Part shown: in pieces, positions 3,388-46,202 of the stretch | How the letters are laid out: each line of letters opens with the position of its first letter | How positions within the stretch are numbered: the first letter of the stretch is position 1 | From: Candidatus Zixiibacteriota bacterium | GTDB taxonomy: Bacteria; Zixibacteria; MSB-5A5; WJJR01; JAJRUJ01 | DNA length: 64,000 nt | Direction: 5' to 3' | NCBI GenBank assembly: GCA_020051695.1 | Contig: JAGVQM010000019.1 | Span: 15,221-79,220 of the forward strand | Made by a program: the position numbers and the translations under genes | Notes under the pieces: generated by a model | Seen by the model: only the letters and a program-made list of their open reading frames with translations | What the model was told of the DNA's origin: nothing | Database searches by the model: none

Positions 3388-4029
3388 TCAGCTGAACAAT
3401 TTGAGCAGCCAATCGTCGATGAGGAACTGCACGCGCTCGATCAGCAGCGAAATACGCGCCATCACGGTATAGCCGAACGACGCGCCGAAGCCGATCATCA
3501 ATGTCCAGATGCCGACTTTGGCGATGCCGCCGGTGGCGCCTTTGTGTTCCTTGGAGAAAAAGAAATAGACCAACGACGTGATGATGCCGATCACCACCAC
3601 GACCGTGTTGATACCCGCCCAAAAGTCGGTTTGCGAATTATGGAGAGCGACAAACGACTGCACGGTGCCGAAGATTTGTTCGAGGACTTTGGTCTGCATC
3701 TCCAGCGGGATCGCGACGCCGGTAGCGATGCCCAGATAGAACGCCAGCGGGTACCGGGAAATCCAGGCCCAGCGTTTGACGATCCGGGTCCACATCAGGA
3801 CCCCGAGGAACGCCGGGATAAGATACCACCATTTCCCGGCCAGCAGTTTCTGCCAGATGTTGGGGATAGCCACGTTGACGTACAGGATAGAAACCCAGTA
3901 CCCTGCCGAAACGCCGACGACCAGATGTTCGGTAAATTTATAGAACGGATTGTCCTTGTACAAAAACGAAAAAATGCACAGGGTCAGCACCGCGGCGACG
4001 GTTGTGGCTATGGCAGTGGCGAAATCCAT
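3388..4029 (-). CDS. Cassette subunit A, copy 1: polytopic membrane protein of unknown family
   Basis: 213 aa with multiple hydrophobic segments. Motifs SFLYKDNPFYKF, FFSKEHKGA and FGYTVMARISLL are shared with 34920-35684 and 38640-39383. Start lies 3 nt after the B1 stop. Confidence 0.85.
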   Translation of the reverse strand: MDFATAIATTVAAVLTLCIFSFLYKDNPFYKFTEHLVVGVSAGYWVSILYVNVAIPNIWQKLLAGKWWYLIPAFLGVLMWTRIVKRWAWISRYPLAFYLGIATGVAIPLEMQTKVLEQIFGTVQSFVALHNSQTDFWAGINTVVVVIGIITSLVYFFFSKEHKGATGGIAKVGIWTLMIGFGASFGYTVMARISLLIERVQFLIDDWLLKLFS

Positions 4030-4032
4030 CGT

Positions 4033-4902
4033 TTATAACCCAACCCTGTTCTTTTTGCGGGTGGCAAAATACCCGATGTTACCGACGATAATAAAAATAA
4101 TAATAATTGAGTGCGCGACCACCTGCACGCTCATGCCTTCCACGGCCTTCCCCGGCGTGCCGACCAGCGTTTCATATTCTGCGGCGCCCTGTAATCCACC
4201 GAGGATTCCGAAAATCTGACCGGTCTGCAGATAGGGGTAATAGTCGGTGGCCATGACCCCGGTGACCCCGATGGCCAGCGGAACCTGATACCGGCCGTTG
4301 CCGTATGTAATCCACCAGTCGGTCGCGGAGGTCCCCGAAATGTTGATCACGGCTTTGATATTCTGGTAATTGCGGATACCCTTCATCATCGGCAGCGAAT
4401 CCAGCGGCACATTGTAATAATCGTTGGGGAAGGGGATCCGGTAGTTTTGTCCCATGCCCAGGATAATCAATATCGGGTATGGCTTGTAGCCCAGGAACAC
4501 CCAGTCTTTACCGCTTTCGGGGCGGTAGCCGGTCAGTTCAAAATGCCGCTGGCAGGCCGTGTCGATGGCTTCAGCAGCCATCCCCGGCCCGTTTTGATGC
4601 AAGGCGGTGATAATGACTTTGATCTTCTTTTCAAAACATTGTTTCAGGACGGCCCGCGTCATCGGGTGCAGCTCCGCAAGCGTGGAGGGATCGTAATCCA
4701 TCGCCAGATGGATATAATCGCCGTCACTGAGACTGTTCATATAATCGTAAATGCTGCGCGCTTCCTTGGAAATCGGGATCGGAATCACCGGCTTGGCAAT
4801 GACCGAGAGGACCACTGCCAGCATCAAAAATCCATAGACCCACCGCCGGTCGATGGCGAACATGCGTTCGAAAATGTTTTTTCGCGAATTCTGCTCAGTC
4901 AT
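4033..4902 (-). CDS. Cassette subunit B, copy 1: bitopic protein with a large central soluble domain
   Basis: 289 aa. IDRR followed by an N-terminal TM, a central domain with DYDPSTLAELHPM and GGLQGAAEYE, then a C-terminal TM followed by a basic tail (RKKNR). Paralogs at 35688-36548 and 39380-40237. Confidence 0.85.
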   Translation of the reverse strand: MTEQNSRKNIFERMFAIDRRWVYGFLMLAVVLSVIAKPVIPIPISKEARSIYDYMNSLSDGDYIHLAMDYDPSTLAELHPMTRAVLKQCFEKKIKVIITALHQNGPGMAAEAIDTACQRHFELTGYRPESGKDWVFLGYKPYPILIILGMGQNYRIPFPNDYYNVPLDSLPMMKGIRNYQNIKAVINISGTSATDWWITYGNGRYQVPLAIGVTGVMATDYYPYLQTGQIFGILGGLQGAAEYETLVGTPGKAVEGMSVQVVAHSIIIIFIIVGNIGYFATRKKNRVGL

Positions 4903-4920
4903 GTTCCACCCGAGTTCAGA

Positions 4921-5547
4921 TCAATCCTTGCCCAGATATGATCGTTCAATACCCAGGACCACTTTCATCGCCGTCGAGACGATCCCCAGCCCGACCCCGA
5001 TCAAAATCGCCCGTTTGGCCGCCAGGTTGGGGACATTCAAAATCCAGTCCGAGGTTTTGCCGACCACCGAGGTCAGCGGCCCCAGCGGGAAAAACCGCAT
5101 CATGACGATGATGGCGGCGACCAGCAAAATACTGGCTAAAACCGAGCGGGCACGAAATGCCCGATAAGCGGCCGAGGCAATGAAAAAGGCCAGCAACGAA
5201 AACATCGTCGCCGAGATCGGGATCATGATGTTGTTGAAACTCCAGTCGAACGCCGTCGATAGCGGGGGATAATGATGGCCGATAACGCCGAACGCACTCA
5301 TGACAAACAAGCCGATGAGGGTGACGATGGAGTAACGCCAGGCCTCCGTTTTCCGCCTGATTCTGGTGATGCTCACGCGGGTCAGCGAAATGACGCCGAG
5401 CATCAGCGCAAACACGCCGATAATCGGCGGCCAGTCCAGGGCAATGAATTCGTAGAAAAACTCAGACTTTTCGTGGGGTACGAAATACTGCACGACCATA
5501 AACAGCCCGCAGGAAAAGATAATGATCAGTGGAAACTGCCGTTTCAT
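4921..5547 (-). CDS. Cassette subunit C, copy 1: polytopic membrane protein
   Basis: 208 aa. MKRQFPLII N-terminus, FFIASAAYRAFRARS, and NVPNLAAKRAILIGVGLGIVS..VLGIERSY. Paralogs at 36553-37341 and 40255-40917. Confidence 0.85.
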   Translation of the reverse strand: MKRQFPLIIIFSCGLFMVVQYFVPHEKSEFFYEFIALDWPPIIGVFALMLGVISLTRVSITRIRRKTEAWRYSIVTLIGLFVMSAFGVIGHHYPPLSTAFDWSFNNIMIPISATMFSLLAFFIASAAYRAFRARSVLASILLVAAIIVMMRFFPLGPLTSVVGKTSDWILNVPNLAAKRAILIGVGLGIVSTAMKVVLGIERSYLGKD

Positions 5548-5556
5548 ATCCGTACC

Positions 5557-6906
5557 CTAAATATTCAATGCAAAATAATCCGTGAGCCAGCCCAGATTTA
5601 AAATCCCGGCAATCACTCCGATGACCATGGCCACCAACAGGAGCGCCTTGGCATAATCCTGGGCCTTTAACGTCCCCAACAGAATCGGTTCCCGTCCCAG
5701 GTAGGCCGATGCCGCGTATAATTCCTCACCGATGAGCGTATAGTCGCACGCCACAACGAAAAACGGAAGTTGGGTCACCCGGTCGGTCCCGGAAATCTGG
5801 ATCGACCCGGCCAGCGAACCGGTTTCCGCCAGGATCAGCGATTCGGCGTAGAACACACCCAGGTAGAAATTCGTCGCTGTCTGCCGCCGCAACATGACAC
5901 CGTTGACTGCGGCGACATAGGCAAACTGGTTTTGGGTGACAAAATAGACCATATCTTCGTTATAATCATCCACGCGGCCGGCGTCGATGTAGGCCTGTTT
6001 GACCGTTTCCTGCGCAATGGTCATCACAATCGAATCATAACAGGGGACGATAAGTTCGGTCTGGTACTCGGCGACTTTTTTGGCGACGCGGGAAAGAATG
6101 GTAAACGAGGCAATGGTGGCGATTTCATCGGGCGCCCCCAAACCGAGCACATACAAGATCGGCCGCCCCATTTCGGTCGCGCGGCCGATGGCCTCATCGA
6201 CGGCGTTGATCCCCGCCAACGGCCGGATATACAGTTCCCTGCCGCCCCTGGCCAGTCTGACCATGGTCAGCATCAAGCCCCCGAAGATCAGCACGGCCAG
6301 GACGACCCATGTTTTCCCCGTATGATACCACTGCCCGGATGATTCGACCGGGCCGAAGATTGCGGATTCAGAGACGGCGCCGCCGGTACCGACAGACAGT
6401 ATTTTAAACGAGAATCCGACATCGTCGGGAGAATAATCGTTGCCTTCGCGGGCCTTGCCGCCGCGATTAAAATATTCTGCAGTACCCGCGGGGATACTCG
6501 CAATTGTATCCCATACGCCCTCAACGAGATGCCACCAGGTGCCCTGTTCGTTACGCCATTGGGGCCCGTCGCCCTGTGGTTCGGTCAACGGACCCGCCCA
6601 GCCCGGCGTACGCAGGATCCTATATTGCAGGACATTGTTCCGGCCGCCCAGATCATCGGCGGAGATGTTCCAGGTCAGATGGAAGGCATGGCCATGGTCG
6701 TTGGGGAGGTCCACCACTTGAAGATTGCTGATCGGCGCGGGGGGAGGTTCGACAATAATGGTCGTGGAATCGACAATCAGCGTATCAGAATGGGGTTCGT
6801 CAACTTGCGCTGCTGCTGAAAGGGATAAAACACAACAAATAAAAACGGTTGCGGCTATGCAAATCCAACAATGGGTTGTCCTCACCCCAGCGGCCTCACC
6901 AATCAT
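5557..6906 (-). CDS. Cassette subunit D, copy 1: signal peptide + FN3-like ectodomain + TM + conserved ~230 aa module + C-terminal TM
   Basis: 449 aa. Signal peptide ending SAAAQ, FN3-like HLTWNISADDLGGRNNVLQYRILR, TM WVVLAVLIFGGLMLTMV. Conserved motifs GRATEMGRPILY, AESLILAETG and LPFFVVACDYTLIGEELYAASAYL. Paralogs at 37350-38615 and 40951-42195. Confidence 0.85.
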   Translation of the reverse strand: MIGEAAGVRTTHCWICIAATVFICCVLSLSAAAQVDEPHSDTLIVDSTTIIVEPPPAPISNLQVVDLPNDHGHAFHLTWNISADDLGGRNNVLQYRILRTPGWAGPLTEPQGDGPQWRNEQGTWWHLVEGVWDTIASIPAGTAEYFNRGGKAREGNDYSPDDVGFSFKILSVGTGGAVSESAIFGPVESSGQWYHTGKTWVVLAVLIFGGLMLTMVRLARGGRELYIRPLAGINAVDEAIGRATEMGRPILYVLGLGAPDEIATIASFTILSRVAKKVAEYQTELIVPCYDSIVMTIAQETVKQAYIDAGRVDDYNEDMVYFVTQNQFAYVAAVNGVMLRRQTATNFYLGVFYAESLILAETGSLAGSIQISGTDRVTQLPFFVVACDYTLIGEELYAASAYLGREPILLGTLKAQDYAKALLLVAMVIGVIAGILNLGWLTDYFALNI

Positions 6907-20868: not shown

Positions 20869-20988
20869 CCGGCAGCTTTCCAGATTAATCTGATATGCGG
20901 TTTCCTGCCGGGGACATATATTTTCCGGGTGCTCCGCATCGGCCGGTATGCGGAGGAACACAACTGGAGAAAATCTCCGGCGGGCGCA

Positions 20989-22371: not shown

Positions 22372-22496
22372 AAACCGGTCCGGCCCGGCAAATCAAGCGT
22401 TGACCTGCACTGCCGAAATATATAACTACTGCCTGGGGCCGACAACAGGAGAACAGGCGGACGAAGTCAAGCGTTGAGGGGAAAGGGTACGGTCCG

Positions 22497-23453: not shown

Positions 23454-23456
23454 TGC

Positions 23457-24242: not shown

Positions 24243-24255
24243 CGTACAATTACTG

Positions 24256-24972
24256 ATGAACGCACAAATCCTGATTAAAACAACCGGCCTCTGCCGACAT
24301 TATCGGCGGGGACCGCAGGAAATCCGCGCAGTGGATGATGTGAATCTGTCCATTCCAAGGGGAGAATTCCTGGGTATCGTTGGAGCGTCAGGGTCGGGTA
24401 AATCGACACTCCTGAATTTGCTCGCCGGTCTGGACACACCGACCTCCGGTACAATCAACATTGACGGCAGCGCATTGAGCGCCCTGAACCGTCGGCAGCT
24501 GTCCACTCATCGCGCGCGGTGCGTGGGTATGGTGTTTCAATCGTTTAATCTGATTTCGCATCGTACAGCCCTGCAAAATGTCGAACTGGCGTTGTACTTT
24601 AATGACACTCCGCTCGGTGAGCGCACAGGCCGGGCAACGGACATTCTGCAACGCCTGGGATTGGGCGACCGACTGAACCACCGACCGGCCGATTTGTCCG
24701 GTGGTGAACAGCAGCGCGTGGCCTTGGCGCGGGCGCTGGTCAAACGGCCTGAAATCCTGATGGCAGACGAACCGACCGGGAACCTGGATGAAATGAATAC
24801 CCGGCACATCGCCGCGATGCTTGCCGAATTGAATCGCGAGGGTCTTACGGTGCTCATGGCGACTCATGATACTGCGCTGGCCCGCGAATGCGCACGGCGG
24901 GTAATCAGGATGAGCTACGGGCGGCTAGTCAATGAAGAGGATGTCCGGGCCACCGGAGGAGTGACATCATGA
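24256..24972 (+). CDS. ABC transporter ATP-binding protein (LolD/MacB-type)
   Basis: Walker A GASGSGKSTLLN, signature LSGGEQQRVALARAL, Walker B ILMADEPTGNLD. Start taken at ATG 24256. Confidence 0.9.
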   Translation: MNAQILIKTTGLCRHYRRGPQEIRAVDDVNLSIPRGEFLGIVGASGSGKSTLLNLLAGLDTPTSGTINIDGSALSALNRRQLSTHRARCVGMVFQSFNLISHRTALQNVELALYFNDTPLGERTGRATDILQRLGLGDRLNHRPADLSGGEQQRVALARALVKRPEILMADEPTGNLDEMNTRHIAAMLAELNREGLTVLMATHDTALARECARRVIRMSYGRLVNEEDVRATGGVTS

Positions 24973-33634: not shown

Positions 33635-34594
33635 CTAGTGTCGTTCCCGCCCAAAATTTTTACCTTTGGCGAAAACCAACGGCAGCAGCTGAGACGCCTC
33701 AATCAGGGTCATCCATAACCGCGCGGCCACGGCGATCATTGCCGCAAGTCCGGGCGACATTGTCGATGCCAGCAAAACGGACAGGACTCCTTCGCGCACC
33801 CCCAACCCTCCCGGCGCGAAGATCGCCAGGTAACCCAGCAAATAGGCGGCGCCGAAGCCGGCCGCTATTGCCCAGAACGAATCCGGTTGAAAGCCCAGAC
33901 CATGCAGCATACACCAAAACGACGCGCCGTAGAGCACCCACGAAATAACATAGAAGACCAGCAAAACCAGCGACCGGCCAAAGGACAATTGAATGACCAC
34001 CGGGGGCCGCTTGAAGAGGCGCAGACCGCAGTTGAGGATCCGGGCAAAGATGCCGGGATACAGAATGATCACAGCGAGCACGACCCCCAGGACCAATGGC
34101 AAAATCGATAACCCCTGAAAGATGGTGTGTCCCAGGACTGCCGTGACGAAAAGCGCCCCGGCGATCAGAGTAAATGCCTGATGCAATACTGTGCCGACAA
34201 ATGCCGTGGCCGTGGAATAGCCCTCCCGGTTGAGCATGTAAAACATCCCCATCATCGACCAGACCTTGCCCGGAAGGTATTTGCCGAGATTGGATAAAAC
34301 CGTAATGCGAAACGCCGTCCAGAATTTCAATCGCTGACCGGAGATGGAAAACAGCAAATACCGCCACAGTTGTACGAGACTGAGCGAAACCACCCATAAC
34401 AGCGCCGCCGAACAGGCCAGCCAGCTAAAATTGAACCTCCAGGGATAATCGCGGATGACATCCCATTGCGAGGCCATGGACCGCACGAGATAAAATAGAA
34501 CCGCCGCGAAAATCAGTATGAATATGACCGTGGTCAATACACCCTTCCGCGGTCGGGTCTGCTCGTGAATCCTAACATCGTTGTTATCAGGCAT
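33635..34594 (-). CDS. UPF0104 / lysylphosphatidylglycerol-synthase-TM-region-like flippase family membrane protein
   Basis: 319 aa polytopic protein. C-terminal LGYLAIFAPGGLGVREGVL motif is typical of this family. Confidence 0.65.
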   Translation of the reverse strand: MPDNNDVRIHEQTRPRKGVLTTVIFILIFAAVLFYLVRSMASQWDVIRDYPWRFNFSWLACSAALLWVVSLSLVQLWRYLLFSISGQRLKFWTAFRITVLSNLGKYLPGKVWSMMGMFYMLNREGYSTATAFVGTVLHQAFTLIAGALFVTAVLGHTIFQGLSILPLVLGVVLAVIILYPGIFARILNCGLRLFKRPPVVIQLSFGRSLVLLVFYVISWVLYGASFWCMLHGLGFQPDSFWAIAAGFGAAYLLGYLAIFAPGGLGVREGVLSVLLASTMSPGLAAMIAVAARLWMTLIEASQLLPLVFAKGKNFGRERH

Positions 34595-34741
34595 TTGTCC
34601 TGCTCGCTGCCCCCATGGTTTTCTCCGGGGCTTGTTGACTTCGAGGCCTATTTAATTAGAATGCAACATCTTAAGTCAAGGCAAAACCATTATGGGGAAA
34701 GGCGGCGGCGCGGACGACATCACCGGCGAAGAACCGTAGAC

Positions 34742-34815
34742 TACCCCCGGCTGGATTCGAACCAGCTACCCTCGGCTTAGAAGGCCGATGCTCTATCCAT
34801 ATGAGCTACGGGGGC
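34742..34815 (-). tRNA. tRNA-Arg (anticodon TCT)
   Basis: 74 nt cloverleaf read by hand: acceptor GCCCCCG/CGGGGGT, D arm GCTC..GAGC, anticodon stem TCGGC/GCCGA with loop CTTCTAA, T arm GCTGG-TTCGAAT-CCAGC. CCA is not encoded. Confidence 0.9.
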
Positions 34816-34919
34816 ATGTGCCGACGCTATAATACGTCAAATAGGCGCCGCCAATCAAGAGGAAATCCGGTTCAGGACAAGCTGTCCGGCGGAAAAGATT
34901 ATGGCTGATAACAAGTTGC

Positions 34920-35684
34920 CTAGTTAATAAAGCCCAGCCAGTCGCCGAACAGGAAGCGCATGCGGCCGACCAACAGGGAAATACGCGCCATCACCGTGTA
35001 GCCGAAACCCGCGCCGAAAGTGACCATCAGCAGGTAAATGCCCACGCGCGAGGCGGCGCCGAATGCGCCCTTGTGTTCTTTGGAGAAAAAGAAATACACG
35101 ATCCCGCAAAAGACGCCAAGGAACACCACGACTGCTGACAGCGAATCCGTCGTCAGGAAACCGCCGTCCGGCCCGAACACGGCCAGCGGGTTGATCGTGT
35201 TATAAATCTGCCCGATAAAATCCGAACGCAGGTAGCGGACAAAATTCAATCCGGCAGTGGTCCCGACAATAAACGCCAGCGACCAGCGGGAAATCCAACC
35301 AAGCTTCGAAGACAACCGCAGCAATAAAATAATGCCCAAAATCAGCGGCAGGAGATACCAGTAATTCGGTTCGGCATCGGCCACCGAGGGTAAAAATGGC
35401 CGTACCGCCGGCGGATGCAGCCGCCCGATCAGGTTGGGGACCAGTGTCGTCCAAAACCCCATCGACATCCAGTACGCCGCCGAGACCCCAACAAACAAAT
35501 GCTCGGCAAATTTATAGAACGGGTTGTCTTTATACAAAAAGCTCAGGATACATAAAGTCAGGAACGCGCCGAACGTGATATAAAACCCTTCAAACGCCCG
35601 GGCATCGCGCGCCATGATCGAGATGACGAACGCAATGATCAGCACGATAAATCCGATCAGATAGATGATAGCCCTGCGTTGCAT
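34920..35684 (-). CDS. Cassette subunit A, copy 2
   Basis: 254 aa polytopic protein with SFLYKDNPFYKF, FFSKEHKGA and FGYTVMARISLL. Start lies 3 nt after the B2 stop. Confidence 0.85.
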   Translation of the reverse strand: MQRRAIIYLIGFIVLIIAFVISIMARDARAFEGFYITFGAFLTLCILSFLYKDNPFYKFAEHLFVGVSAAYWMSMGFWTTLVPNLIGRLHPPAVRPFLPSVADAEPNYWYLLPLILGIILLLRLSSKLGWISRWSLAFIVGTTAGLNFVRYLRSDFIGQIYNTINPLAVFGPDGGFLTTDSLSAVVVFLGVFCGIVYFFFSKEHKGAFGAASRVGIYLLMVTFGAGFGYTVMARISLLVGRMRFLFGDWLGFIN

Positions 35685-35687
35685 CGC

Positions 35688-36548
35688 CTATTTCGCCCGC
35701 GCTTTCCGTTTCCGGTCGATGAAAAAGGTCGCGTTGCCGATAATGATGAACAGCATGATCACGATATGCGCCACCGCCTGCGGCCCCATCATCTCCAGCC
35801 CGCCGTGCGGCATTTGCTCAAAATCGGGATATTTCCGGATCATTTCCGATTCGTATTCGGCTGCGCCCTTGATCCCCCCCATCATGCCCAGCATCTGGTT
35901 GGGATAATACGGATACAACTGCGGCGCCGAGACCGCGGTCACCCCGCCGGCCACCGGTATGTTGCCGGGGTCGCCGGCAAAAAGGATCCACTCTTTCAAA
36001 CCGGGAAAGCCGCCGCCGAAGGCCGCGATTAAGTCCATGTTTTTCAAACTGCGGACATCCCGCATCATCGGAATGCTGTCAATCTGCGTGCCGTTGACAT
36101 CGGTAGTATACATCTTCTTCATGTCGGTAATGATCACGTTGATCAGGCCCTGATTACCCGCCTTGTATCCCAGATGGACATAATCCACACCGCAAACCTT
36201 ATCCGGGAAATGTGTCGTGACGATACGGTCGATCGTCTCATCGGCCAGATTTTGCCCCGTGCCCCACAACGCCATGACATACAATTTCAGATTTCGCCGG
36301 CAACAGTGATACATCACGGCATCAACCATCGGTTGCTGTTCGGGAACAGTGGAGGGATCGAAATCCAGCGAAATCAACACCCGCGAACCCTCAGGCAGGG
36401 TCTCGATTTTATCGAAGATCTTCTGCACAATCGGCGTAATCCGCTCGGGAAAGATGACATTGAACAACAGGGGAATAATTACGGACAAGGCAATAAACAA
36501 AAAGATTATCCGCCGGTCGATGTTCTTGATGGTATCGAAAAAGGCCAT
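35688..36548 (-). CDS. Cassette subunit B, copy 2
   Basis: 286 aa. NIDRR followed by a TM, DFDPSTVPEQQPM, GGIKGAAEYE, and a C-terminal TM with an RKRKARAK tail. Confidence 0.85.
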   Translation of the reverse strand: MAFFDTIKNIDRRIIFLFIALSVIIPLLFNVIFPERITPIVQKIFDKIETLPEGSRVLISLDFDPSTVPEQQPMVDAVMYHCCRRNLKLYVMALWGTGQNLADETIDRIVTTHFPDKVCGVDYVHLGYKAGNQGLINVIITDMKKMYTTDVNGTQIDSIPMMRDVRSLKNMDLIAAFGGGFPGLKEWILFAGDPGNIPVAGGVTAVSAPQLYPYYPNQMLGMMGGIKGAAEYESEMIRKYPDFEQMPHGGLEMMGPQAVAHIVIMLFIIIGNATFFIDRKRKARAK

Positions 36549-36552
36549 GGCG

Positions 36553-37341
36553 TTAATCCTTGTCCCGTCCGAGATATGTCCGTTCGATGCCCAGGATCAC
36601 CCGCAGCGACATCGAAATTACTCCCAGCGAAATGCCGATAATAATTGCCCGCTGGCCCGCCAGGTTGGGGACCCCCATAATCCAGTTGGTCAGGTTAGGC
36701 ACTTCGAAAAACGACAGCGCATCAGGCAGCCAGAACGTGGCATAGTACCCGGCGGGCGTCCGCCCCAGCAGAATGACAAAGGCAGTGACCAGCAGGACGG
36801 TGGCTTCCTTGTTTTTAGCCCGGAATGCGCGATACGACGCCGAGGCCACAAAAAAGGCCAGCAGCGCGTACATCGTCGCTTTCAGCGGAGTAAAGACATA
36901 CGTGAAAAAGTCCTGAAACACCGAGCCGGTGGCGGTGAGATTCCCCACCCAGCCGCCGGGGTTGCCGATTTTGAACAACCCGGCCCAGAGCATGACGAAA
37001 AATCCGATGAGTGTGACCATCGAGAAAAACCAGTCTTTGCCGCGCCGGTCCTCGATCCCGCCCATCGCATGGAAGGGAAACGCAATGAGCATCTTCAACG
37101 GCCAGAAGCCCCCCTGTTTCCTGCTTTCCGTGAAATAGAACTTCAACCCGCGGAAGAACCGCCCACTGTGGATCCGCACCAGGTTGCCGCCGCCGAGGAA
37201 GAAGGCAAACACGGCGATGATATCAAAATACAGGCTGAAATTTTCACCCAGCCGGCCGAACGGGTCATGCGGAATAAACGCCGCGATGATCAGCACCGCG
37301 CCGACGGTGAACGTGATTAATAATGGTACCTGCCGTTTCAT
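36553..37341 (-). CDS. Cassette subunit C, copy 2
   Basis: Start placed at ATG 37341 (MKRQVPLLITF), matching the C1 and C3 N-termini. FFVASASYRAFRAKNKEAT and GQRAIIIGISLGVISMSLRVILGIERTY. Confidence 0.85.
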   Translation of the reverse strand: MKRQVPLLITFTVGAVLIIAAFIPHDPFGRLGENFSLYFDIIAVFAFFLGGGNLVRIHSGRFFRGLKFYFTESRKQGGFWPLKMLIAFPFHAMGGIEDRRGKDWFFSMVTLIGFFVMLWAGLFKIGNPGGWVGNLTATGSVFQDFFTYVFTPLKATMYALLAFFVASASYRAFRAKNKEATVLLVTAFVILLGRTPAGYYATFWLPDALSFFEVPNLTNWIMGVPNLAGQRAIIIGISLGVISMSLRVILGIERTYLGRDKD

Positions 37342-37349
37342 GGTTTTGC

Positions 37350-38615
37350 CTATTGATTCAGCCGGAACAGATCGCGCACCCATTCGCCGGCGGTGGTGGC
37401 AATCCCGACATTAAACAATGACCCGATAGTCAGCAGTGTCACGCCGGCCAGGATCGCCAGCATCGCGATCATCTTGCCGACATCCTGCCCCTTCAACGAC
37501 CCCAGCTGGCGCGGTTCGTGCGACAGATAAGCCGAGGCGGCGAACAACTCCTCACCGATCAGCGTATAATCGCAGGCCGCGACAAAAAACGGCAGCTGTG
37601 CGGGCATCGCCGTGCCGGCGATCTGGATCGCCTCGATGGAATGGCCGGTCTCGGCCATAATCAGCGATTCGGCGAAAAACGCGCCGAGATAGAAACAGGT
37701 CGCCGGCCTTTCGCGCACCATGATCCCGTCCACCGCCGCGACATACCCGAACTGTTCGTCGGTGACATACTGCACATAATCATCCGAGTATGCATCGGGG
37801 CGCCCGGCGGCCAGATAGGCCTCTTTAATCGACTCGCGCGCGGTGGTCATCACAATCGAGCGTGAAGTCGGGACAAACAACTTGGAATCATATTCGGCGA
37901 TGGTCTTGGCGATCCGCCCCAAGATCGTAATCCCGGCCACGGTCTGCACGTCGTCCATGTCCTGGATGCCGGGGATAAACAAAATCGGCCGCCCCATTTC
38001 GGTGGCGCGTCCGATCGCCTCGTCGACCGCTTCGAGTCCGGCGATTTTGCGGATAAAGAGTATTTTGCCCCTTTTGGCCGAGGCGATGAAATACCCGATA
38101 AACAACGAGATGATTCCACCGACGACAAACAAATTCAGGATATTGAAATTAAACCACTGCGCGGACGATCGGACCGGACCGATCACCGGCGAAGACGACG
38201 AGCCCCCGGCTGTCTGGGTCTCGATTCTGTAATAGAAATCCGTCCCCGGCACGGTCGAGGCATCAGTGTATCTTTTTTCTCCGGCCGAGGAAAACCCGGT
38301 CTCGCGAAACGGCCCTTCCGGCGATTCGGCGCGCAAAATGCGGTAGCCCGTGACCAGGTTTTCGCCGGGACGGTCATCGGCCGACAGCTCCCAAAAGACA
38401 TTGATCGAATGCCCTTCATCGGAAGGCGTGTCTTCCGCCCCCGCATTGACCGGCGGCGCAGGCCGGCGGACCGCGGCCATCATCCCCGCAACGCCCGTAG
38501 CGGCGGAATCGGCCGGCGCCGAATCGACAACCTGGGCGACCATGCCGGAAGCCGGCAGCAGCATCCCTGCCAGAAGACAGCAAAAAAGAATTTTGTGCAG
38601 CACCTTCATGGTCAC
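37350..38615 (-). CDS. Cassette subunit D, copy 2
   Basis: 421 aa. Signal peptide, FN3-like INVFWELSADDRPGENLVTGYRILR, a TM, GRATEMGRPILF, AESLIMAETG, LPFFVAACDYTLIGEELFAASAYL, and a C-terminal TM. Confidence 0.85.
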   Translation of the reverse strand: MTMKVLHKILFCCLLAGMLLPASGMVAQVVDSAPADSAATGVAGMMAAVRRPAPPVNAGAEDTPSDEGHSINVFWELSADDRPGENLVTGYRILRAESPEGPFRETGFSSAGEKRYTDASTVPGTDFYYRIETQTAGGSSSSPVIGPVRSSAQWFNFNILNLFVVGGIISLFIGYFIASAKRGKILFIRKIAGLEAVDEAIGRATEMGRPILFIPGIQDMDDVQTVAGITILGRIAKTIAEYDSKLFVPTSRSIVMTTARESIKEAYLAAGRPDAYSDDYVQYVTDEQFGYVAAVDGIMVRERPATCFYLGAFFAESLIMAETGHSIEAIQIAGTAMPAQLPFFVAACDYTLIGEELFAASAYLSHEPRQLGSLKGQDVGKMIAMLAILAGVTLLTIGSLFNVGIATTAGEWVRDLFRLNQ

Positions 38616-38639
38616 GACGTCAATTCAGTTTCAGACCGA

Positions 38640-39383
38640 CTAGTTAATCAATTGCAACCAATCACTCATGAGATAATCCATGCGGCCGATCAACAGCGAT
38701 AACCGGCTCATGACCGTATACCCGAATGATGCGCCGAACGTGAGCATCAGTGTCCAGATCCCGATTTTGGCCACCCCGCCGAATGCGCCTTTATGTTCCT
38801 TGGAAAAATAAAAATAGATCAGTCCGGAGAGCGTCCCGATGACCAATATTGCCTGAGAAATGGTCGCCCACAAGTCGAGATTCCCGGCGGCATCGTAACG
38901 CTGCAGCGGGCCAGCAGAGGCCCCCAGCTGGAGGATGCCGTTGGAAACAAAGTAATTGATAAAATACAACCCCGCCGTCGCGCCGACCACCACCGCCAGC
39001 GGCCAGCGGGAGATCCACCCCGCTTTGGGAAACAACCGCATCAGCATCAGGACGCCCAGAAGCCCGCCGATCAGCATCATCCACCGGTCATCCCATCCGC
39101 CGCCCTGCACGAACGTCGTGTGATAGGCCGCGCCGACCCCGACGAAGAGCTTGGAATACATATTCTGCCAGAATAATGAGACAAACCAATAGCCGGCGGA
39201 AATTCCCACAAATGCGGCTTCGGAAAACTTGTAATACGGGTTGTCTTTATACAAGAAGGAAAAGATACCGATGGTAAAAAACGCACCCAGGGTCACCGCA
39301 AGGCCCTGGGATGCGGCCAGGATCGCAAAAACGGCGATTCCGACGGCGATAACGATATAGCCGACTACTTTGGTGTTCATCAT
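38640..39383 (-). CDS. Cassette subunit A, copy 3
   Basis: 247 aa with SFLYKDNPYYKF, YFSKEHKGA and FGYTVMSRLSLL. ATGA overlap with the B3 stop. Confidence 0.85.
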   Translation of the reverse strand: MMNTKVVGYIVIAVGIAVFAILAASQGLAVTLGAFFTIGIFSFLYKDNPYYKFSEAAFVGISAGYWFVSLFWQNMYSKLFVGVGAAYHTTFVQGGGWDDRWMMLIGGLLGVLMLMRLFPKAGWISRWPLAVVVGATAGLYFINYFVSNGILQLGASAGPLQRYDAAGNLDLWATISQAILVIGTLSGLIYFYFSKEHKGAFGGVAKIGIWTLMLTFGASFGYTVMSRLSLLIGRMDYLMSDWLQLIN

Positions 39384-40237
39384 GTTTGCTTCCGCCGGCC
39401 ACCGGCAAAGTAGGCCACATTACCCACGATGATGAAGAGGATCACGATGATGTGGGCAAATGACTGGGATAACATGAATTTCGTGGCCTTGCCCAGGGTA
39501 CCGGCCAACTCTTCAAATTCCGAAGCGCCCTTGAGGCCGCCCAGAATCCCCCGGAGCTGCCCGCTTTCAAAATAGGGATACGCCAGCGGGGCCTGTACTG
39601 CTGTCGTCCCCCCCAATAATTGTACCCCGAAACGATCAACGCCGAATTGCACCCACTCCACAATACCCGGATATCCGGCGGAGACATTGATCACAAAGTC
39701 GATATTGTTAAAATTCTGCATTCCCTGCATCAGCGGTAACTCGGCGATTGGCGTGCCCCGGAAATCGCGCGGGAATGCCGCGGGAATCGACGAACCCATC
39801 CGCTGGATCACCAATTCATTGCCGGCCTGGAAACCGAGGTTGACCCAGTCGCGGCCATAGGTCAGCGTCTTGCCCTTCCAGATAATCGTTTCTCCGGGCA
39901 CCTCGCCCAGTACGGACTCCAAGGCGGCATTGGCCTGCTGCGGTCCCTGCGGCCACAGTCCCATGATGATCATCTTCAAGTCATGATCGAGGCAATACCG
40001 GATCGCCGTTATCGCCATCGGCTGCAATTCCGGCGCCGAGGGAGGGTCATAATCACAGGGAATGAGCACGCGGGCGCCCGGCTGCAGTCGCGCCAGTTCG
40101 TCAAAACCACGACGCACTTCGTAAGAAATCGTGGTCTTTTGGGAGATATTCAAAAATAACGGCAGGGTGACCGCAACGATGACGAACAGGAAAATAATCC
40201 GCCGGTCGATCTTCATCAATTTGTCCCAAAAACCCAT
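39380..40237 (-). CDS. Cassette subunit B, copy 3
   Basis: Start placed at ATG 40237 (MGFWDKLMKIDRRIIFLF), matching B1 and B2. The tracked 348 aa ORF adds 63 non-homologous residues that overlap C3. DYDPPSAPELQPM and GGLKGASEFE. Confidence 0.85.
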   Translation of the reverse strand: MGFWDKLMKIDRRIIFLFVIVAVTLPLFLNISQKTTISYEVRRGFDELARLQPGARVLIPCDYDPPSAPELQPMAITAIRYCLDHDLKMIIMGLWPQGPQQANAALESVLGEVPGETIIWKGKTLTYGRDWVNLGFQAGNELVIQRMGSSIPAAFPRDFRGTPIAELPLMQGMQNFNNIDFVINVSAGYPGIVEWVQFGVDRFGVQLLGGTTAVQAPLAYPYFESGQLRGILGGLKGASEFEELAGTLGKATKFMLSQSFAHIIVILFIIVGNVAYFAGGRRKQT

Positions 40238-40254
40238 GCCGTTCCTGCCTGTCA

Positions 40255-40917
40255 TCAATCGCCGCTGACAAATGTCCGTTCGATCCCCAGAATAATCCGC
40301 AATGATGTCGACATGATCCCCAGCGCGATGCCGATCATGATCGCCCGCTGCCCGGCGGTGTTGGGGATGTTCATCACCCAATCGGCCCAGTTGGACAACC
40401 ACAGCCAGTGGGGCAACTGCAACCATTCTTTGGTGATCATATCACCGACCGGCACCCGCCCCAGCATCACAAAAAATGCAGCCAACAGCAGCATCGTCGC
40501 TTCCTTGTTGCGGGCGCGGAAGGCCCGATAGGAAGCCGAGGCCACGAAAAAACCGAGAAGGGCAAACATCGTGGAGGACAGCGGATCATAGACATTATCA
40601 TAAATGAACATGAACCGCGTACCGGGCTCCTGAAAATTCGCTCCTCTGGAGAAAAAGATGCCGACGATAAATATTGCGGCAAAACCGATAATCGTCACCA
40701 GTGAATACATCCAGTCTTTCTTGCGCCGGGCAACCTTGAGCAACGACAATTTCATCAAGTTCAGCGCACCCAGCCAGATGGCAAAGGCCTGAATGATCCC
40801 AAACCAGTCGGAAAACCAGTCGGAAAACCGGGAAACCGGTTCGTGCGGCACGAAATATTGGAAGATGTACATGATCCCCACCACCGCAGTGATGATCAAT
40901 GGAACTTCACGCTTCAT
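40255..40917 (-). CDS. Cassette subunit C, copy 3
   Basis: 220 aa. MKREVPLII, FFVASASYRAFRARNKEAT and GQRAIMIGIALGIMSTSLRIILGIERTF. Confidence 0.85.
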   Translation of the reverse strand: MKREVPLIITAVVGIMYIFQYFVPHEPVSRFSDWFSDWFGIIQAFAIWLGALNLMKLSLLKVARRKKDWMYSLVTIIGFAAIFIVGIFFSRGANFQEPGTRFMFIYDNVYDPLSSTMFALLGFFVASASYRAFRARNKEATMLLLAAFFVMLGRVPVGDMITKEWLQLPHWLWLSNWADWVMNIPNTAGQRAIMIGIALGIMSTSLRIILGIERTFVSGD

Positions 40918-40950
40918 CTTCGCTCAAACCCTTCCCGTCTCCCCACGACG

Positions 40951-42195
40951 CTACACCTGGAACCACCCGGAAATATCCGCAATCTTAAATGTTCCCAGGA
41001 GCAAACCTGCGACAGCCGCGATCAAGATCAGTACTTTGGCCACGTCCTGACCCTTGACGCTGCCCAGTAATTTCGGTTCTTTCGACAGATAGGCCGAGGC
41101 GGCAAAAAGCTCTTCGCCAATTAATGTATAGTCGCAGGCCGCCACAAAAAACGGCAATTGAGAGGCATTCGCGGTGCCCGCGATCTGAATCGCACCGATC
41201 GCATTGCCGGTTTCGGCCATAATTAACGACTCGGCGTAAAACGCGCCCATATAGAAAATCGTCGCCGGTTTCTCGCGGACAAACAAGCCGTCCAGCGCAG
41301 CGGCATAACCGAACTGGTCATCGGTAAGATAACGCACGATGTCTTCGTTGAACGCATCCGGCCGGCCGACGTTCAAATAGGCCTCCTTCACCACCTCGCG
41401 GGAGGTGATCATCACCAGTGAACGCGAAACCGGAACATCCAATTGCGCATCGTACTCCGCGGCCAGTTTGGCGATCCGCCCCAGGATGGTCACCCCAGCC
41501 AGGGTCTGGACATTATCCATATCCTGTGTCCCGGGGATATACACCAGCTTGCGGCCCATTTCGGTGGCGCGCCCGACCGCCTGTTCGACTTCCGCCAGAC
41601 CGGCGATAGGCCGGACGTACAAATCCTTGCCCTTCTTGGCCACATTGATAAACCACAAAATCGAAATTCCGATTACCAGCACCCAGGGCAAAATCCGTGC
41701 GGTGCGAATGATATGAAACCACTGGCCGGAGGCTTTCGCGGCCCCGGAGAGCGGCGAAGCCACGCCGGCAAACAGTTTTTCCCCGGCCGGAGTGAACTTG
41801 CCGGCCAGGGCGGCCACCTTATAGTAATAATTTACCCCGTTGTCGACCTGGCCGTCGGTGAGCGTGGTCATTCCGGCGGTCGCGGAACCAACGGTATCAA
41901 ACGGCCCGTCGGGCGAAGTCGAACGCAAGATAATATACTTGGTGACATTTCTGCGGCCGGCAACATCATCGGCGGACAGTTCCCAACTGATAGTAATCGA
42001 TTTCCCGGCGTCATCAGGGGTATCCTGGGCTTCGACCGAGACAACCGGCGCCGGGGCTTCGAGTTGGGGCGGAGTTTCAGCCACAACGACCGTGGTCGAG
42101 TCGACGGGAGCATCCTGTGCCCAGGCAGGCGATGCCGCGCCACATACAGGAAAGACCAGCAGGAACAGGGAGATGGACAACGCTTTTTTCATCAT
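40951..42195 (-). CDS. Cassette subunit D, copy 3
   Basis: Start placed at ATG 42195 (MMKKALSISLFLLVFPVCGAASPAWA signal peptide). The tracked GTG at 42225 lies inside a terminator hairpin. ITISWELSADDVAGRRNVTKYIILR, GRATEMGRKLVY, AESLIMAETG and LPFFVAACDYTLIGEELFAASAYL. Confidence 0.85.
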   Translation of the reverse strand: MMKKALSISLFLLVFPVCGAASPAWAQDAPVDSTTVVVAETPPQLEAPAPVVSVEAQDTPDDAGKSITISWELSADDVAGRRNVTKYIILRSTSPDGPFDTVGSATAGMTTLTDGQVDNGVNYYYKVAALAGKFTPAGEKLFAGVASPLSGAAKASGQWFHIIRTARILPWVLVIGISILWFINVAKKGKDLYVRPIAGLAEVEQAVGRATEMGRKLVYIPGTQDMDNVQTLAGVTILGRIAKLAAEYDAQLDVPVSRSLVMITSREVVKEAYLNVGRPDAFNEDIVRYLTDDQFGYAAALDGLFVREKPATIFYMGAFYAESLIMAETGNAIGAIQIAGTANASQLPFFVAACDYTLIGEELFAASAYLSKEPKLLGSVKGQDVAKVLILIAAVAGLLLGTFKIADISGWFQV

Positions 42196-42210
42196 CAGCA
42201 GTTCCTGCAC

Positions 42211-42241
42211 AAAAAAAATCCCCACCTGCTTTGAGGTGAGG
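42211..42241 (-). terminator. Intrinsic-terminator hairpin inside the 5' leader of the tandem cassette operon (candidate attenuator)
   Basis: Minus strand reads CCTCACCT-caaagc-AGGTGGGG (8 bp stem with one G.U), then A and T8, ending 15 nt before ATG 42195. No minus-strand gene ends immediately upstream of it. Confidence 0.65.
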
Positions 42242-42352
42242 TCCTATTCATCGACGAGACTGGGTTCCCGGACAATGACTTGTTCTGCGTTTCCCGTCTC
42301 TCATAACCGTCACTATTATCCCATCCCCATCCCGCACACTCACAAGTGATAG

Positions 42353-42382
42353 AATATACCCCCCGCATATACCGCCTGTCAA
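42353..42382 (-). promoter_or_regulatory. Candidate sigma70-type promoter of the tandem cassette operon
   Basis: Minus strand reads TTGACA (42382-42377), 18 nt spacer, TATATT (42358-42353). This predicts a leader of roughly 150 nt. Confidence 0.5.
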
Positions 42383-42515
42383 GGCAATTATTCCCCGGAG
42401 AACCAATCAACGGCGGCTCTGCTGGCCGCTGATCAGTGCGGTGCATTTATCGAAAAACCTGTTGACATCCGGCCCCGTGCCCGCTTGCTCTAGGGGAAAG
42501 GATAGAGCGCAACTG

Positions 42516-43184
42516 ATGGCCGCGACACAAAAAATCGACGTCTACGAACAAGCCCTGGAGCTGGTCCGGCAACTTCATGCGGTGAACAAATATGAGGTGG
42601 ATGAGGAGGTGGCCGAGTGGCTGGCCAGCGAATCGGAAATCAACGCTGATTCCCCCAGCGGGCAATTCAACAGGATCATCGGCAGAATTTACGAGGGCAT
42701 GTTCAACGGCATTCAATCCATGCGGGAAATCGGGCCGGAATTGCTGTGGGGCCGCGCGCAGGACAAAGTCCGGGGCGAATCATATCATGCGCCGGACACT
42801 GCACAAAAGGAAAAAATACCGATCATCCACTGGCGGCTGCTGCGATTGTACTGGATGGTCCGGCTGGCCGCCGAGGAGTTGATCGAGCAAAAACCCCGCA
42901 CCCGGCTGGGCAAAGTCTTAATCGAAGTCGAGCACGACCTGCGCGAGGCGTTTGTCGAAACAAAAGAAGGCGTCAAGCTCCCGCTGGCCATGCGCCGCAA
43001 GAAACAGTGGGACCTGCTGGCCGATTTCGGCATGGGGCTGACGGTCGACCAGATTTACGATCTGCGCCCGCCGCGCTATGTCATCCACTGGAACACCGGC
43101 GAAAAGTTGTGGCTGGGAATAATCGTCGGAATCGTGATCGGTTTCGTGCTGGGGGTAATGCTGCTGTGGCCGTCGGGGCAGTAG
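42516..43184 (+). CDS. Hypothetical protein with a single C-terminal TM (tail-anchored topology)
   Basis: Start placed at ATG 42516, with AAAGGA upstream. The body is soluble and helical-looking, and the C-terminus is LWLGIIVGIVIGFVLGVMLLW. Divergent from the cassette operon. No family recognised. Confidence 0.5.
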   Translation: MAATQKIDVYEQALELVRQLHAVNKYEVDEEVAEWLASESEINADSPSGQFNRIIGRIYEGMFNGIQSMREIGPELLWGRAQDKVRGESYHAPDTAQKEKIPIIHWRLLRLYWMVRLAAEELIEQKPRTRLGKVLIEVEHDLREAFVETKEGVKLPLAMRRKKQWDLLADFGMGLTVDQIYDLRPPRYVIHWNTGEKLWLGIIVGIVIGFVLGVMLLWPSGQ

Positions 43185-46105: not shown

Positions 46106-46202
46106 CCCCACCTCCCGCCGAGCGCAAGTGTCCGGCATTACTACGATTCACTAGTAATAATACTACATGAATCGGGGGTGTCAACAAAAATCCAGGCGCC
46201 GA

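What the first reader, a model, noticed from the sequence alone, without database searches (positions are those of the whole stretch)
34920..42195. Very tight gene junctions conserved across all three cassettes
Junctions read from the coordinates are as follows. D to C: 9, 8 and 33 nt. C to B: 18, 4 and 17 nt. B to A: 3 nt, 3 nt and a 4 nt ATGA overlap. A3 to D2 is only 24 nt. Several junctions leave no room for an independent Shine-Dalgarno sequence. This implies translational coupling and therefore fixed subunit stoichiometry. It also implies that the two tandem cassettes form one eight-gene transcription unit.
Basis: seen in the sequence. Interest (0 to 1): 0.35.

Follow-up and report, generated by a model that had tools for sequence, protein, structure and literature searches.

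The report
Tightly packed operons for unknown membrane complex
The short gaps between these genes are real but are ordinary operon packing; what they package is more interesting, namely three ancient copies of a widespread four-gene set for a membrane-protein complex whose function nobody has worked out.

Summary
All ten junctions have the stated lengths. All twelve gene models match public gene calls on the source contig, a 178-kb Zixibacteria MAG. The same spacings recur in two syntenic relatives and, statistically, in 79 loci from more than ten phyla.

- Co-transcription of the two tandem cassettes is likely. There is one near-consensus promoter (42382-42353), and the A3-D2 spacer holds no promoter or terminator.
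- That promoter is followed by a conserved terminator-like hairpin 16 nt before the D3 start codon. Any eight-gene transcript must read through it.
- Termination-reinitiation coupling is plausible only at the -4 to +9 nt junctions. It is unlikely at 17-33 nt.
- Absence of a Shine-Dalgarno motif is genome-wide here, so it is not specific to the junctions.
- Fixed stoichiometry does not follow from spacing.

Each cassette encodes four membrane proteins. D has a signal peptide, an fn3 domain, a TM helix and DUF6754. C and A are polytopic. B is TM, Rossmann-like domain, TM. Only D matches Pfam, and nothing beyond its fn3 domain matches PDB sequences.

Zixibacteria and Ignavibacteria carry three ancient cassette types in a fixed order, 3-2-1. 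In 35 of 80 loci a GlmL-like ASKHA ATPase gene or a barrel-sandwich protein gene (often both) lies beside the cassettes. Neither gene is in this window.

The parts
42353..42382 (-). Sigma-70-type promoter-like site, TTGACA-18 nt-TATATT. Probable start of the transcription unit.
   Evidence: Scores 11 of 12 matches and is the only strong - strand hit in 34500-42700. The -35 and -10 hexamers are invariant in relatives L081 and L082.
42212..42241 (-). Terminator-like hairpin (CCTCACCT / loop / GGGTGGGG) followed by T8. It lies inside the 5' leader, with the T-run ending 16 nt before the D3 start codon.
   Evidence: Found. The stem arms and T-run are conserved and the loop varies in L081 and L082. 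No Rfam family matches.
40951..42195 (-). D3: signal peptide, fn3 domain, TM helix, DUF6754 domain, C-terminal TM helix (414 aa).
   Evidence: PF20539 at E 2e-117. TM scan. Exact public gene call.
40255..40917 (-). C3: polytopic membrane protein (220 aa) with no known family.
   Evidence: No family match. TM scan. Paralogue of C2 and C1 at 41-42% identity. Exact public gene call.
39380..40237 (-). B3: TM helix, alpha/beta domain, TM helix (285 aa). An alternative start at 40255 gives 291 aa.
   Evidence: Paralogue evidence. Both starts exist as public calls. Relatives use the 285/286-aa start.
38640..39383 (-). A3: polytopic membrane protein (247 aa). Its start overlaps the B3 stop as ATGA.
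37350..38609 (-). D2: signal peptide, fn3, TM helix, DUF6754, TM helix (419 aa).
   Evidence: PF20539 at E 3e-120. 100% identical to public protein P0001. AF2 model.
36553..37341 (-). C2: polytopic membrane protein (262 aa).
   Evidence: Exact public gene call.
35688..36548 (-). B2: N-terminal TM helix, Rossmann-like alpha/beta domain, C-terminal TM helix (286 aa).
34920..35684 (-). A2: polytopic membrane protein (254 aa) and last gene of the tandem pair.
   Evidence: Exact public gene call. No terminator-like fold downstream.
5557..6906 (-). D1: DUF6754 protein of the detached type-1 cassette (449 aa).
   Evidence: tblastn 41-43% identity to D2 and D3. Exact public gene call.
4921..5547 (-). 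C1 (208 aa).
4033..4902 (-). B1 (289 aa).
3388..4029 (-). A1 (213 aa).

Best explanation
The short junctions are the normal packing of operons that encode subunits of a hetero-oligomeric membrane complex.

Shown:
- Each cassette (D-C-B-A) encodes four integral membrane proteins.
- These proteins co-evolve as a set.
- The gene order is invariant across more than ten bacterial phyla.

Inferred:
- Cassettes 3 and 2 are transcribed together from the promoter at 42382-42353.
- This transcript passes through a roughly 150-nt leader. Its conserved terminator-like hairpin probably makes expression conditional, by attenuation or a riboswitch-like mechanism.
- Cassette 1, which lies 28 kb away, is a separate unit.
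- Internal genes are translated in two ways. Termination-reinitiation coupling is credible where stop and start overlap or lie within a few nucleotides: B-to-A in all three cassettes, C2-to-B2, and perhaps D-to-C in cassettes 1 and 2. At the 17-33 nt junctions, initiation is independent or merely facilitated.

Function (inferred):
- The cassette is the membrane module of a larger, uncharacterised envelope system.
- Its cytoplasmic partners are a GlmL-like ASKHA ATPase and a barrel-sandwich-hybrid protein. In other genomes their genes lie immediately beside the cassettes.
- My best guess is a transporter- or translocase-like module. The three paralogous versions would differ in specificity and share one ATPase module.
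For: Junctions and gene models:
- Recomputed coordinates match the finding, and all 12 gene models are public gene calls.
- Orthologous spacings are conserved in L081, L082 and L080.
- The same pattern holds in 79 loci.

Conservation of the cassette:
- The D-C-B-A order is universal.
- All four genes of a cassette assign to the same paralogue type. The array order type 3, type 2, type 1 recurs in Zixibacteria and Ignavibacteria.

Transcription:
- There is a single strong promoter and no promoter or terminator at the A3-D2 spacer.
- The promoter and leader hairpin are conserved in relatives.

Protein features:
- All four proteins have predicted TM segments.
- D matches PF20539.
- The B model is confident and shows TM, alpha/beta domain, TM.

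Partner genes:
- GlmL-like (PF13941, E 1e-129) and RnfC_N-like genes lie next to the cassettes in 35 of 80 loci. These loci come from Planctomycetota, Acidobacteriota, Fermentibacteria, Zixibacteria and Coatesbacteria.

Coupling:
- The distance dependence of termination-reinitiation coupling comes from PMC10666635.
Against: - No expression data exist for this organism. Co-transcription, read-through of the leader hairpin and coupling are all inferred from sequence.
- The promoter scan covers only the sigma-70 consensus, so internal promoters inside A3 or other genes cannot be excluded.
- In relatives the A3-D2 spacer is 49-75 nt and is not conserved in sequence.
- In L080 a cold-shock gene sits between two cassettes. 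Arrays are therefore not always a single unit.
- The GlmL-like and barrel-sandwich genes are absent from this 64-kb window.
- No fold or sequence match gives any subunit a function. The transporter reading is a guess from architecture.
Confidence: 0.6

Rival explanations
1. Every junction is translationally coupled because there is no room for a Shine-Dalgarno motif. The four subunits, and the two cassettes, are therefore made in fixed proportions from one eight-gene mRNA.
For: - All junctions are at most 33 nt.
- B-to-A overlaps are frequent in the family, 40 of 101.
Against: - Four of the ten junctions are 17-33 nt, a range where reinitiation is mostly lost.
- Absence of a Shine-Dalgarno motif is genome-wide. 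The motif is found before 10 of 38 other genes and 3 of 12 cassette genes.
- Across the family, internal genes carry Shine-Dalgarno-like cores in 44-53% of cases against an 11% background. Tight spacing therefore does not exclude a gene having its own ribosome-binding site.
- Coupling sets dependence between genes, not a ratio.
Confidence: 0.15
2. The spacing is simple genome compaction and the cassettes are separate units. Each gene initiates independently. Cassette 2 has its own promoter inside the 3' end of A3, so there is no eight-gene transcript.
For: - Paralogue types 3 and 2 are ancient and may need different regulation.
- The A3-D2 spacers in relatives are 49-75 nt and are not conserved.
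- Six of 48 A-to-D junctions in other genomes exceed 180 nt.
Against: - No promoter-like site was found on the - strand within A3 or the spacer.
- No terminator follows A3.
- Thirteen of 48 A-to-D junctions in other genomes overlap, which requires co-transcription there.
Confidence: 0.15
3. This rival concerns function. The cassette is a periplasm-facing scaffold or envelope-organising complex, working like MreC/MreD with MreB or PilN/PilO with PilM. In those systems an ASKHA ATPase on the cytoplasmic face is linked through bitopic proteins to periplasmic interaction domains. On this reading it is not a transporter.
For: - The D ectodomain is variable and made of interaction modules: one to five fn3 domains, or a BamB-like beta-propeller.
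- B and D are bitopic, with globular domains predicted on opposite faces of the membrane.
- The partner ATPase is of the ASKHA type.
- MotA/ExbB genes lie nearby in 5 loci from two phyla.
Against: - No sequence or fold similarity to MreC/D, PilN/O or GspL/M was found.
- GlmL-family proteins are not known to polymerise or to bind membranes.
- The high invariance of polar residues in D, A and C fits a catalytic or transport site at least as well.
Confidence: 0.2
4. This rival also concerns function. The cassette is an Rnf/Nqr-like redox-driven ion pump. Its features would be a peripheral protein with an RnfC_N domain, one large membrane subunit, one bitopic subunit with a periplasmic domain, and two polytopic subunits of about 220 aa.
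For: The subunit inventory resembles RnfC-D-G-E-A. The upstream 375-aa protein hits RnfC_N weakly, at E 1e-6 in one member.
Against: - No subunit hits the Rnf/Nqr Pfam or NCBIfam models, even at permissive thresholds.
- A and C are not homologous to each other, unlike RnfA and RnfE.
- The upstream protein (E) has no conserved cysteine clusters.
- The gene order differs.
- The partner is an ATPase, not an oxidoreductase.
Confidence: 0.05

Closest known systems
Ordinary bacterial operons for heteromeric complexes with overlapping or closely spaced genes (termination-reinitiation coupling; Huber et al. 2019 and 2023)
   Same: The genes are co-directional. There is an ATGA overlap at B3/A3 and 3-9 nt spacers at five other junctions. 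The products are very likely subunits of one complex, and the spacing is conserved in orthologues.
   Different: Four of the ten junctions (17, 18, 24-30 and 33 nt) lie outside the range where reinitiation was measured to work. No expression data exist. Shine-Dalgarno use is low across the genome.
Pfam PF20539 (DUF6754)
   Same: D1, D2 and D3 are clear members, with E 1e-117 to 1e-120 over the full-length domain.
   Different: The family has no assigned function. Pfam covers neither the three partner proteins nor the operon.
Rnf/Nqr ion-translocating complexes
   Same: The inventory is comparable: a barrel-sandwich peripheral protein, a bitopic subunit with a periplasmic domain, and small polytopic subunits.
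   Different: There is no detectable homology, no cofactor motifs, a different gene order, and an ASKHA ATPase partner.
GlmL/MutL accessory proteins of B12-dependent mutases (PF13941, TIGR01319)
   Same: The roughly 620-aa protein encoded next to the cassettes in other genomes matches PF13941 at E 1e-129.
   Different: It scores below the NCBIfam equivalog cut-offs and carries a C-terminal extension of about 130 aa. No mutase genes are nearby. It is linked to membrane-protein genes instead, and it is not in this window.
ECF/ABC-type systems in which several membrane modules share one energising module
   Same: There are several paralogous membrane modules (types 3, 2 and 1), while the fetched stretches show one ATPase/partner gene pair beside an array.
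   Different: There is no ABC ATPase and no homology to ECF components. Sharing of the ATPase module is inferred only from gene counts in fetched flanks.

Membership tests
Translationally coupled gene pairs (termination-reinitiation type) | Stop and start codons overlap (-4 or -1) or lie within a few nucleotides | tested here: inconclusive
   One junction overlaps (B3/A3, -4), or two if B3 starts at 40255. Five junctions are 3-9 nt and four are 17-33 nt. The benchmark distances come from PMC10666635.
Translationally coupled gene pairs (termination-reinitiation type) | Downstream translation depends on upstream translation | not testable with these tools
   This needs reporter fusions with premature stop codons, or ribosome profiling.
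Single polycistronic transcription unit (cassettes 3 and 2) | One promoter upstream, with no terminator or promoter between the genes | tested here: met
   The only strong - strand promoter-like site is at 42382-42353. No - strand promoter-like site lies between it and A2, and the internal terminator-like hits are no more frequent than in shuffled sequence (13 against 11.9). The A3-D2 spacer has no significant fold.
Single polycistronic transcription unit (cassettes 3 and 2) | RNA continuity across all junctions | not testable with these tools
   No transcriptome data are available.
Pfam PF20539 DUF6754 | Score above the gathering threshold (27 bits) over the domain | tested here: met
   D3 scores 391 bits and D2 scores 400.6 bits. 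D1 is 41-43% identical to them by tblastn.
Rnf/Nqr complex | Subunits match the RnfD/NqrB, RnfA/E and FMN_bind families, and RnfC carries Fe-S motifs | tested here: not met
   There are no such Pfam or NCBIfam hits for A, B, C or D. A scan of 48 B-family members at E up to 1 shows nothing consistent. A and C are not homologous to each other.
ABC transporter operon | ABC ATPase and permease families present | tested here: not met
   No ABC_tran or permease hits occur in the cassettes. The ABC genes elsewhere in the window (24211-26432) are unrelated.
Extended GlmL-like / barrel-sandwich / D-C-B-A gene cluster seen in other genomes | PF13941 gene and 375-aa barrel-sandwich gene adjacent to the cassettes | tested here: not met
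   tblastn of these proteins against the window finds nothing below E 0.3. They are present in 35 of 80 other loci, including the 73%-identity relative L080.
Intrinsic-terminator-based attenuator or riboswitch leader | G+C-rich hairpin plus T-run between the promoter and the first gene | tested here: met
   The hairpin has 8 base pairs (5 G-C) followed by T8, at 42241-42212. It is conserved in L081 and L082 with a variable loop.
Intrinsic-terminator-based attenuator or riboswitch leader | Conserved alternative (antiterminator) structure or ligand-binding aptamer | tested here: inconclusive
   No Rfam family matches. The fold z-score is -1.7. Only three distinct sequences are available, with 5 of 38 pairs showing compensatory changes. 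The metagenome scan added no new sequence.

The most novel reading that the evidence does not exclude
The D-C-B-A cassette, together with the GlmL-like ASKHA ATPase and the barrel-sandwich protein encoded beside it in other genomes, is a previously undescribed envelope machine. It is found in more than ten phyla and in about 830 clusters at 50% identity. It could be the first transporter or translocase class powered by an ASKHA ATPase. Zixibacteria and Ignavibacteria would then run three specialised membrane modules from one ATPase module. In this lineage, expression would be gated by a new terminator-based leader RNA.
Probability: 0.25. Interest if true: 0.75.

Novelty: new member of a known kind. 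Interest (0 to 1): 0.3.

Why it matters
The junction spacing itself teaches little. It is what operons for membrane complexes usually look like.

The value lies in what the check uncovered.
- A four-gene membrane module, of which only one protein has a DUF label, has kept its gene order and spacing across Zixibacteria, Ignavibacteria, Planctomycetota, Acidobacteriota, Gemmatimonadota, WOR-3, Fermentibacteria and other phyla.
- The module was triplicated long ago, and the three types sit in a fixed order.
- It is repeatedly linked to a GlmL-like ATPase that has no known membrane role.

This gives a concrete, testable candidate for an unknown envelope function in many uncultured phyla. It also corrects the proposed transcript model by adding a conserved leader hairpin.

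Tried and rejected
- ABC transporter or Liv-type operon (my first guess from gene sizes). Rejected because Pfam shows no such hits.
- Third cassette at 20929-24972. Rejected because those genes are MatE, a deacetylase, an FAA hydrolase and an ABC ATPase. The true third cassette is at 3388-6906.
- D and B domains homologous, or A and C homologous. Rejected: hhalign probabilities are all below 4%.
- Profile searches of the A, B, C, D and E families against PDB sequences. They found nothing beyond fn3 and barrel-sandwich fragments.
- Pfam scan of 48 B-family members at E up to 1. Nothing was consistent.
- Rfam on the window and on the leader. Only the two tRNAs were found.
- blastn and nhmmer of the leaders against 80 loci, plus a metagenome pattern scan. 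These added no new leader homologues; L091 duplicates L082.
- Literature searches for DUF6754, PF13941 and GlmL with actin-like or ASKHA. No relevant paper was found.
- The afdb50 fold library was unavailable.
- Look-up of P0001 in the contig index failed.
- My first tblastn check for the ATPase used the wrong protein, a peptidase M28. It was repeated correctly.


Full report
**Observation**

The region holds eight co-directional genes on the - strand, and a third homologous set lies at 3388-6906.

| Junction | Cassette 1 | Cassette 2 | Cassette 3 |
|---|---|---|---|
| D to C | 9 nt | 8 nt | 33 nt |
| C to B | 18 nt | 4 nt | 17 nt |
| B to A | 3 nt | 3 nt | ATGA overlap (-4) |

The A3-to-D2 spacer is 24 nt to the GTG at 38615, or 30 nt to the ATG at 38609.

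All twelve proteins defined by these starts are found, residue for residue, as public gene products on the same 178,015-nt contig. B3 has two public starts. The 285-aa call gives a 17-nt gap, and the 291-aa call gives a 1-nt overlap with C3.

Two syntenic relatives have nearly identical spacings at orthologous junctions:

| Junction | L081 | L082 |
|---|---|---|
| D3 to C3 | 33 | 34 |
| C3 to B3 | 17 | 15 |
| B3 to A3 | -1 | -4 |
| D2 to C2 | 9 | 8 |
| C2 to B2 | 4 | 4 |
| B2 to A2 | 3 | 3 |

Across 79 loci from other genomes the medians are 13 nt (D-C), 16.5 nt (C-B) and 5 nt (B-A, with 40 of 101 overlapping). From A to the next D the median is 28.5 nt, with 13 of 48 overlapping.

Inside the window, other same-strand neighbours have a median gap of about 74 nt, and only 11 of 32 are at most 35 nt. 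It is the spacing expected of operons, not something tighter than usual (PMC10666635).

**What the genes are**

D1, D2 and D3 each carry a signal peptide, an fn3 domain, a TM helix, the DUF6754 domain (PF20539, E 1e-117 to 1e-120) and a C-terminal TM helix.

C and A are polytopic membrane proteins. B has one TM helix at each end. None of the three hits Pfam or NCBIfam. Profiles of all four families find nothing in PDB sequences except fn3. The four families are not detectably related to each other.

By the positive-inside rule I infer that the B domain faces the periplasm and the DUF6754 domain of D faces the cytoplasm. This is inference, not a tool result.

**Distribution and evolution**

The organism is a member of candidate division Zixibacteria. 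The D family has more than 8000 members in the 90%-identity collection and 833 clusters at 50% identity with E at most 1e-30.

A genome scan returned at least 593 loci. The 79 that were kept come from Zixibacteria, Ignavibacteria, Eisenbacteria, WOR-3, Coatesbacteria, Gemmatimonadota, Acidobacteriota, Planctomycetota, Fermentibacteria and others. The order D-C-B-A is the same in all of them.

When each gene is typed by its best window paralogue, the four genes of a cassette always agree. Zixibacteria and Ignavibacteria typically carry type 3, type 2 and type 1 in that order. Single-cassette phyla are type-2-like.

The triplication is therefore old, and each cassette evolves as a unit, as expected for subunits that assemble with their own partners. 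In this window the type-1 cassette has been separated from the 3-2 pair by 28 kb of housekeeping genes.

The ectodomain of D varies between one to five fn3 domains and a BamB-like beta-propeller. DUF6754 stays at the C-terminus.

**Partners elsewhere**

In 35 of 80 loci the cassettes are flanked by one or both of two genes. One encodes a protein of about 620 aa matching PF13941 'MutL' (GlmL-like ASKHA ATPase, E 1e-129). It scores below the NCBIfam equivalog cut-offs. The other encodes a protein of about 375 aa with an N-terminal barrel-sandwich hybrid domain. It hits RnfC_N weakly and has no PDB relative.

In 12 of these loci a small protein of about 130 aa is also present. The loci span Planctomycetota, Acidobacteriota, Fermentibacteria, Zixibacteria and Coatesbacteria.

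The close relative L080 has these genes directly upstream of a three-cassette array. They are not in this window.

No paper in the searchable library mentions DUF6754 or PF13941.

**Transcription**

The only strong - strand promoter-like site between 42700 and 34500 is TTGACA-18-TATATT at 42382-42353 (11 of 12 matches).

The A3-D2 spacer has no promoter-like or terminator-like feature and no significant fold. There is also no intrinsic terminator after A2. A tRNA-Arg gene follows 103 nt downstream on the same strand.

Co-transcription of the eight genes is therefore the most economical reading. Overlapping A-to-D junctions in other genomes support it.

A hairpin (CCTCACCT/GGGTGGGG) followed by T8 lies at 42241-42212, inside the leader, with its T-run ending 16 nt before the D3 ATG.

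The promoter hexamers, both stem arms and the T-run are conserved in L081 and L082. The loop differs between them. There is no space for another promoter downstream of the hairpin. Expression of the unit must therefore depend on read-through, which suggests attenuation or a riboswitch-like control.

Rfam has no match. With three sequences the structure cannot be tested properly, and a metagenome scan added none.

**Translation**

Shine-Dalgarno-like cores (GGAG, GAGG or AGGA at -18 to -4) precede 3 of 12 cassette genes and 10 of 38 other genes in the window. The background frequency is 8.6%.

The lack of a Shine-Dalgarno motif is therefore a property of the genome, not of the tight junctions. 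Where a motif is present (before B2 and B3), it sits in the end of the upstream gene or in the short spacer.

Across the 79 loci, internal genes carry such cores in 44-53% of cases against an 11% background. Short spacing therefore does not exclude a gene having its own ribosome-binding site.

Measured termination-reinitiation efficiencies fall steeply with distance. A 2-nt gap costs 5-70%. About 20 nt nearly abolishes coupling in H. volcanii. A 38-nt gap costs 80-100% in E. coli (PMC10666635).

Coupling of this kind is therefore credible for B-to-A in all three cassettes and for C2-to-B2. It is possible for the 8-9 nt D-to-C junctions. It is unlikely at 17, 18, 24-30 and 33 nt.

Coupling by ribosome-mediated unfolding of the mRNA remains possible at any junction. 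Fixed stoichiometry is not implied by either mechanism.

**Function**

Nothing assigns a function. The evidence shows the following:
- four co-evolving membrane subunits;
- globular domains predicted on both faces of the membrane;
- a variable periplasmic interaction domain on D;
- many invariant polar residues in D, A and C;
- a recurrent ASKHA ATPase partner.

I favour a transporter- or translocase-like membrane module served by that ATPase. The three paralogous modules would have different specificity. I rate this at roughly one in three.

A scaffold of the MreCD or PilNO kind comes next. An Rnf/Nqr-like pump is unlikely, because every homology test failed.

**Verdict**

The finding is real and its operon reading is broadly right. 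The coupling and stoichiometry claims go beyond the evidence. As a spacing observation it is ordinary. The uncharacterised, widely conserved system behind it and the conserved leader hairpin are the parts worth following up.

Noticed in passing
window 42212-42382 (- strand): A near-consensus promoter is followed about 105 nt later by a terminator-like hairpin and T8, whose T-run ends 16 nt before the D3 start codon. The promoter, stem arms and T-run are conserved in two relatives while the loop varies. This is a candidate attenuator, riboswitch or small RNA with no Rfam family.
   Followed up: partly
L080 2399-6034; L027 2349-5440; L058 2412-5878; 35 of 80 loci: A GlmL-like ASKHA ATPase (PF13941, about 620 aa) and a barrel-sandwich-hybrid protein of about 375 aa are encoded next to the cassettes in several phyla. 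In 12 loci a protein of about 130 aa is also present. None of these is in this window.
   Followed up: partly
window 3388-6906 versus 34920-42195; loci L013, L019, L020, L023, L028, L036: The three cassettes are ancient paralogue types. In Zixibacteria and Ignavibacteria they normally sit in tandem in the order 3-2-1. Here type 1 is detached by 28 kb of housekeeping genes.
   Followed up: yes
proteins P0283, P0301, P0322, P0243, P0245: The ectodomain of D is swapped between lineages. It is one to five fn3 domains or a BamB-like PQQ_2 beta-propeller. The C-terminal DUF6754 stays 55-63% identical.
   Followed up: partly
window 35684-35690 and 4029-4035: B2/A2 and B1/A1 lie in the same reading frame, separated only by the stop codon and one sense codon (TAG GCG ATG; TAA ACG ATG). 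Read-through of a single stop would therefore give a B-A fusion.
   Followed up: no
loci L002, L005, L006, L012, L040, L047, L055, L069, L072 and others: Some cassettes read D, then a gap of about 500 nt, then B and A. No recognisable C is present and B is longer. In L069 an ORF of about 120 aa fills the gap. This may be a divergent or replaced C subunit.
   Followed up: no
window 34741-34816 (- strand): A tRNA-Arg(TCT) gene lies 103 nt downstream of A2 on the same strand, with no terminator-like fold in between. A weak promoter-like site (TTGATT-18-TATTAT) lies at 34858-34829.
   Followed up: partly
window 43199-46138 (-) and 42516-43184 (+): A 979-aa secreted protein with multiple fn3 domains and a divergently oriented 222-aa protein with no family lie upstream of D3. 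Both are conserved in synteny in L081 and L082, together with a peptidase S49 gene.
   Followed up: partly
L040 9153-12774; L058 33-1312: MotA/ExbB and ExbD/TolR-like genes lie within a few kilobases of the cassettes in WOR-3 and Gimesia loci, 5 of 80 loci in all. In WOR-3 a DUF4388 gene is also present. This is a weak hint of an envelope energy-transduction context.
   Followed up: partly
window 36349-37320 (+) and 41443-42234 (+): Long antisense ORFs of 323 and 263 aa overlap C2/D2 and D3. They are most likely non-coding shadows of the G+C-rich coding strand.
   Followed up: no
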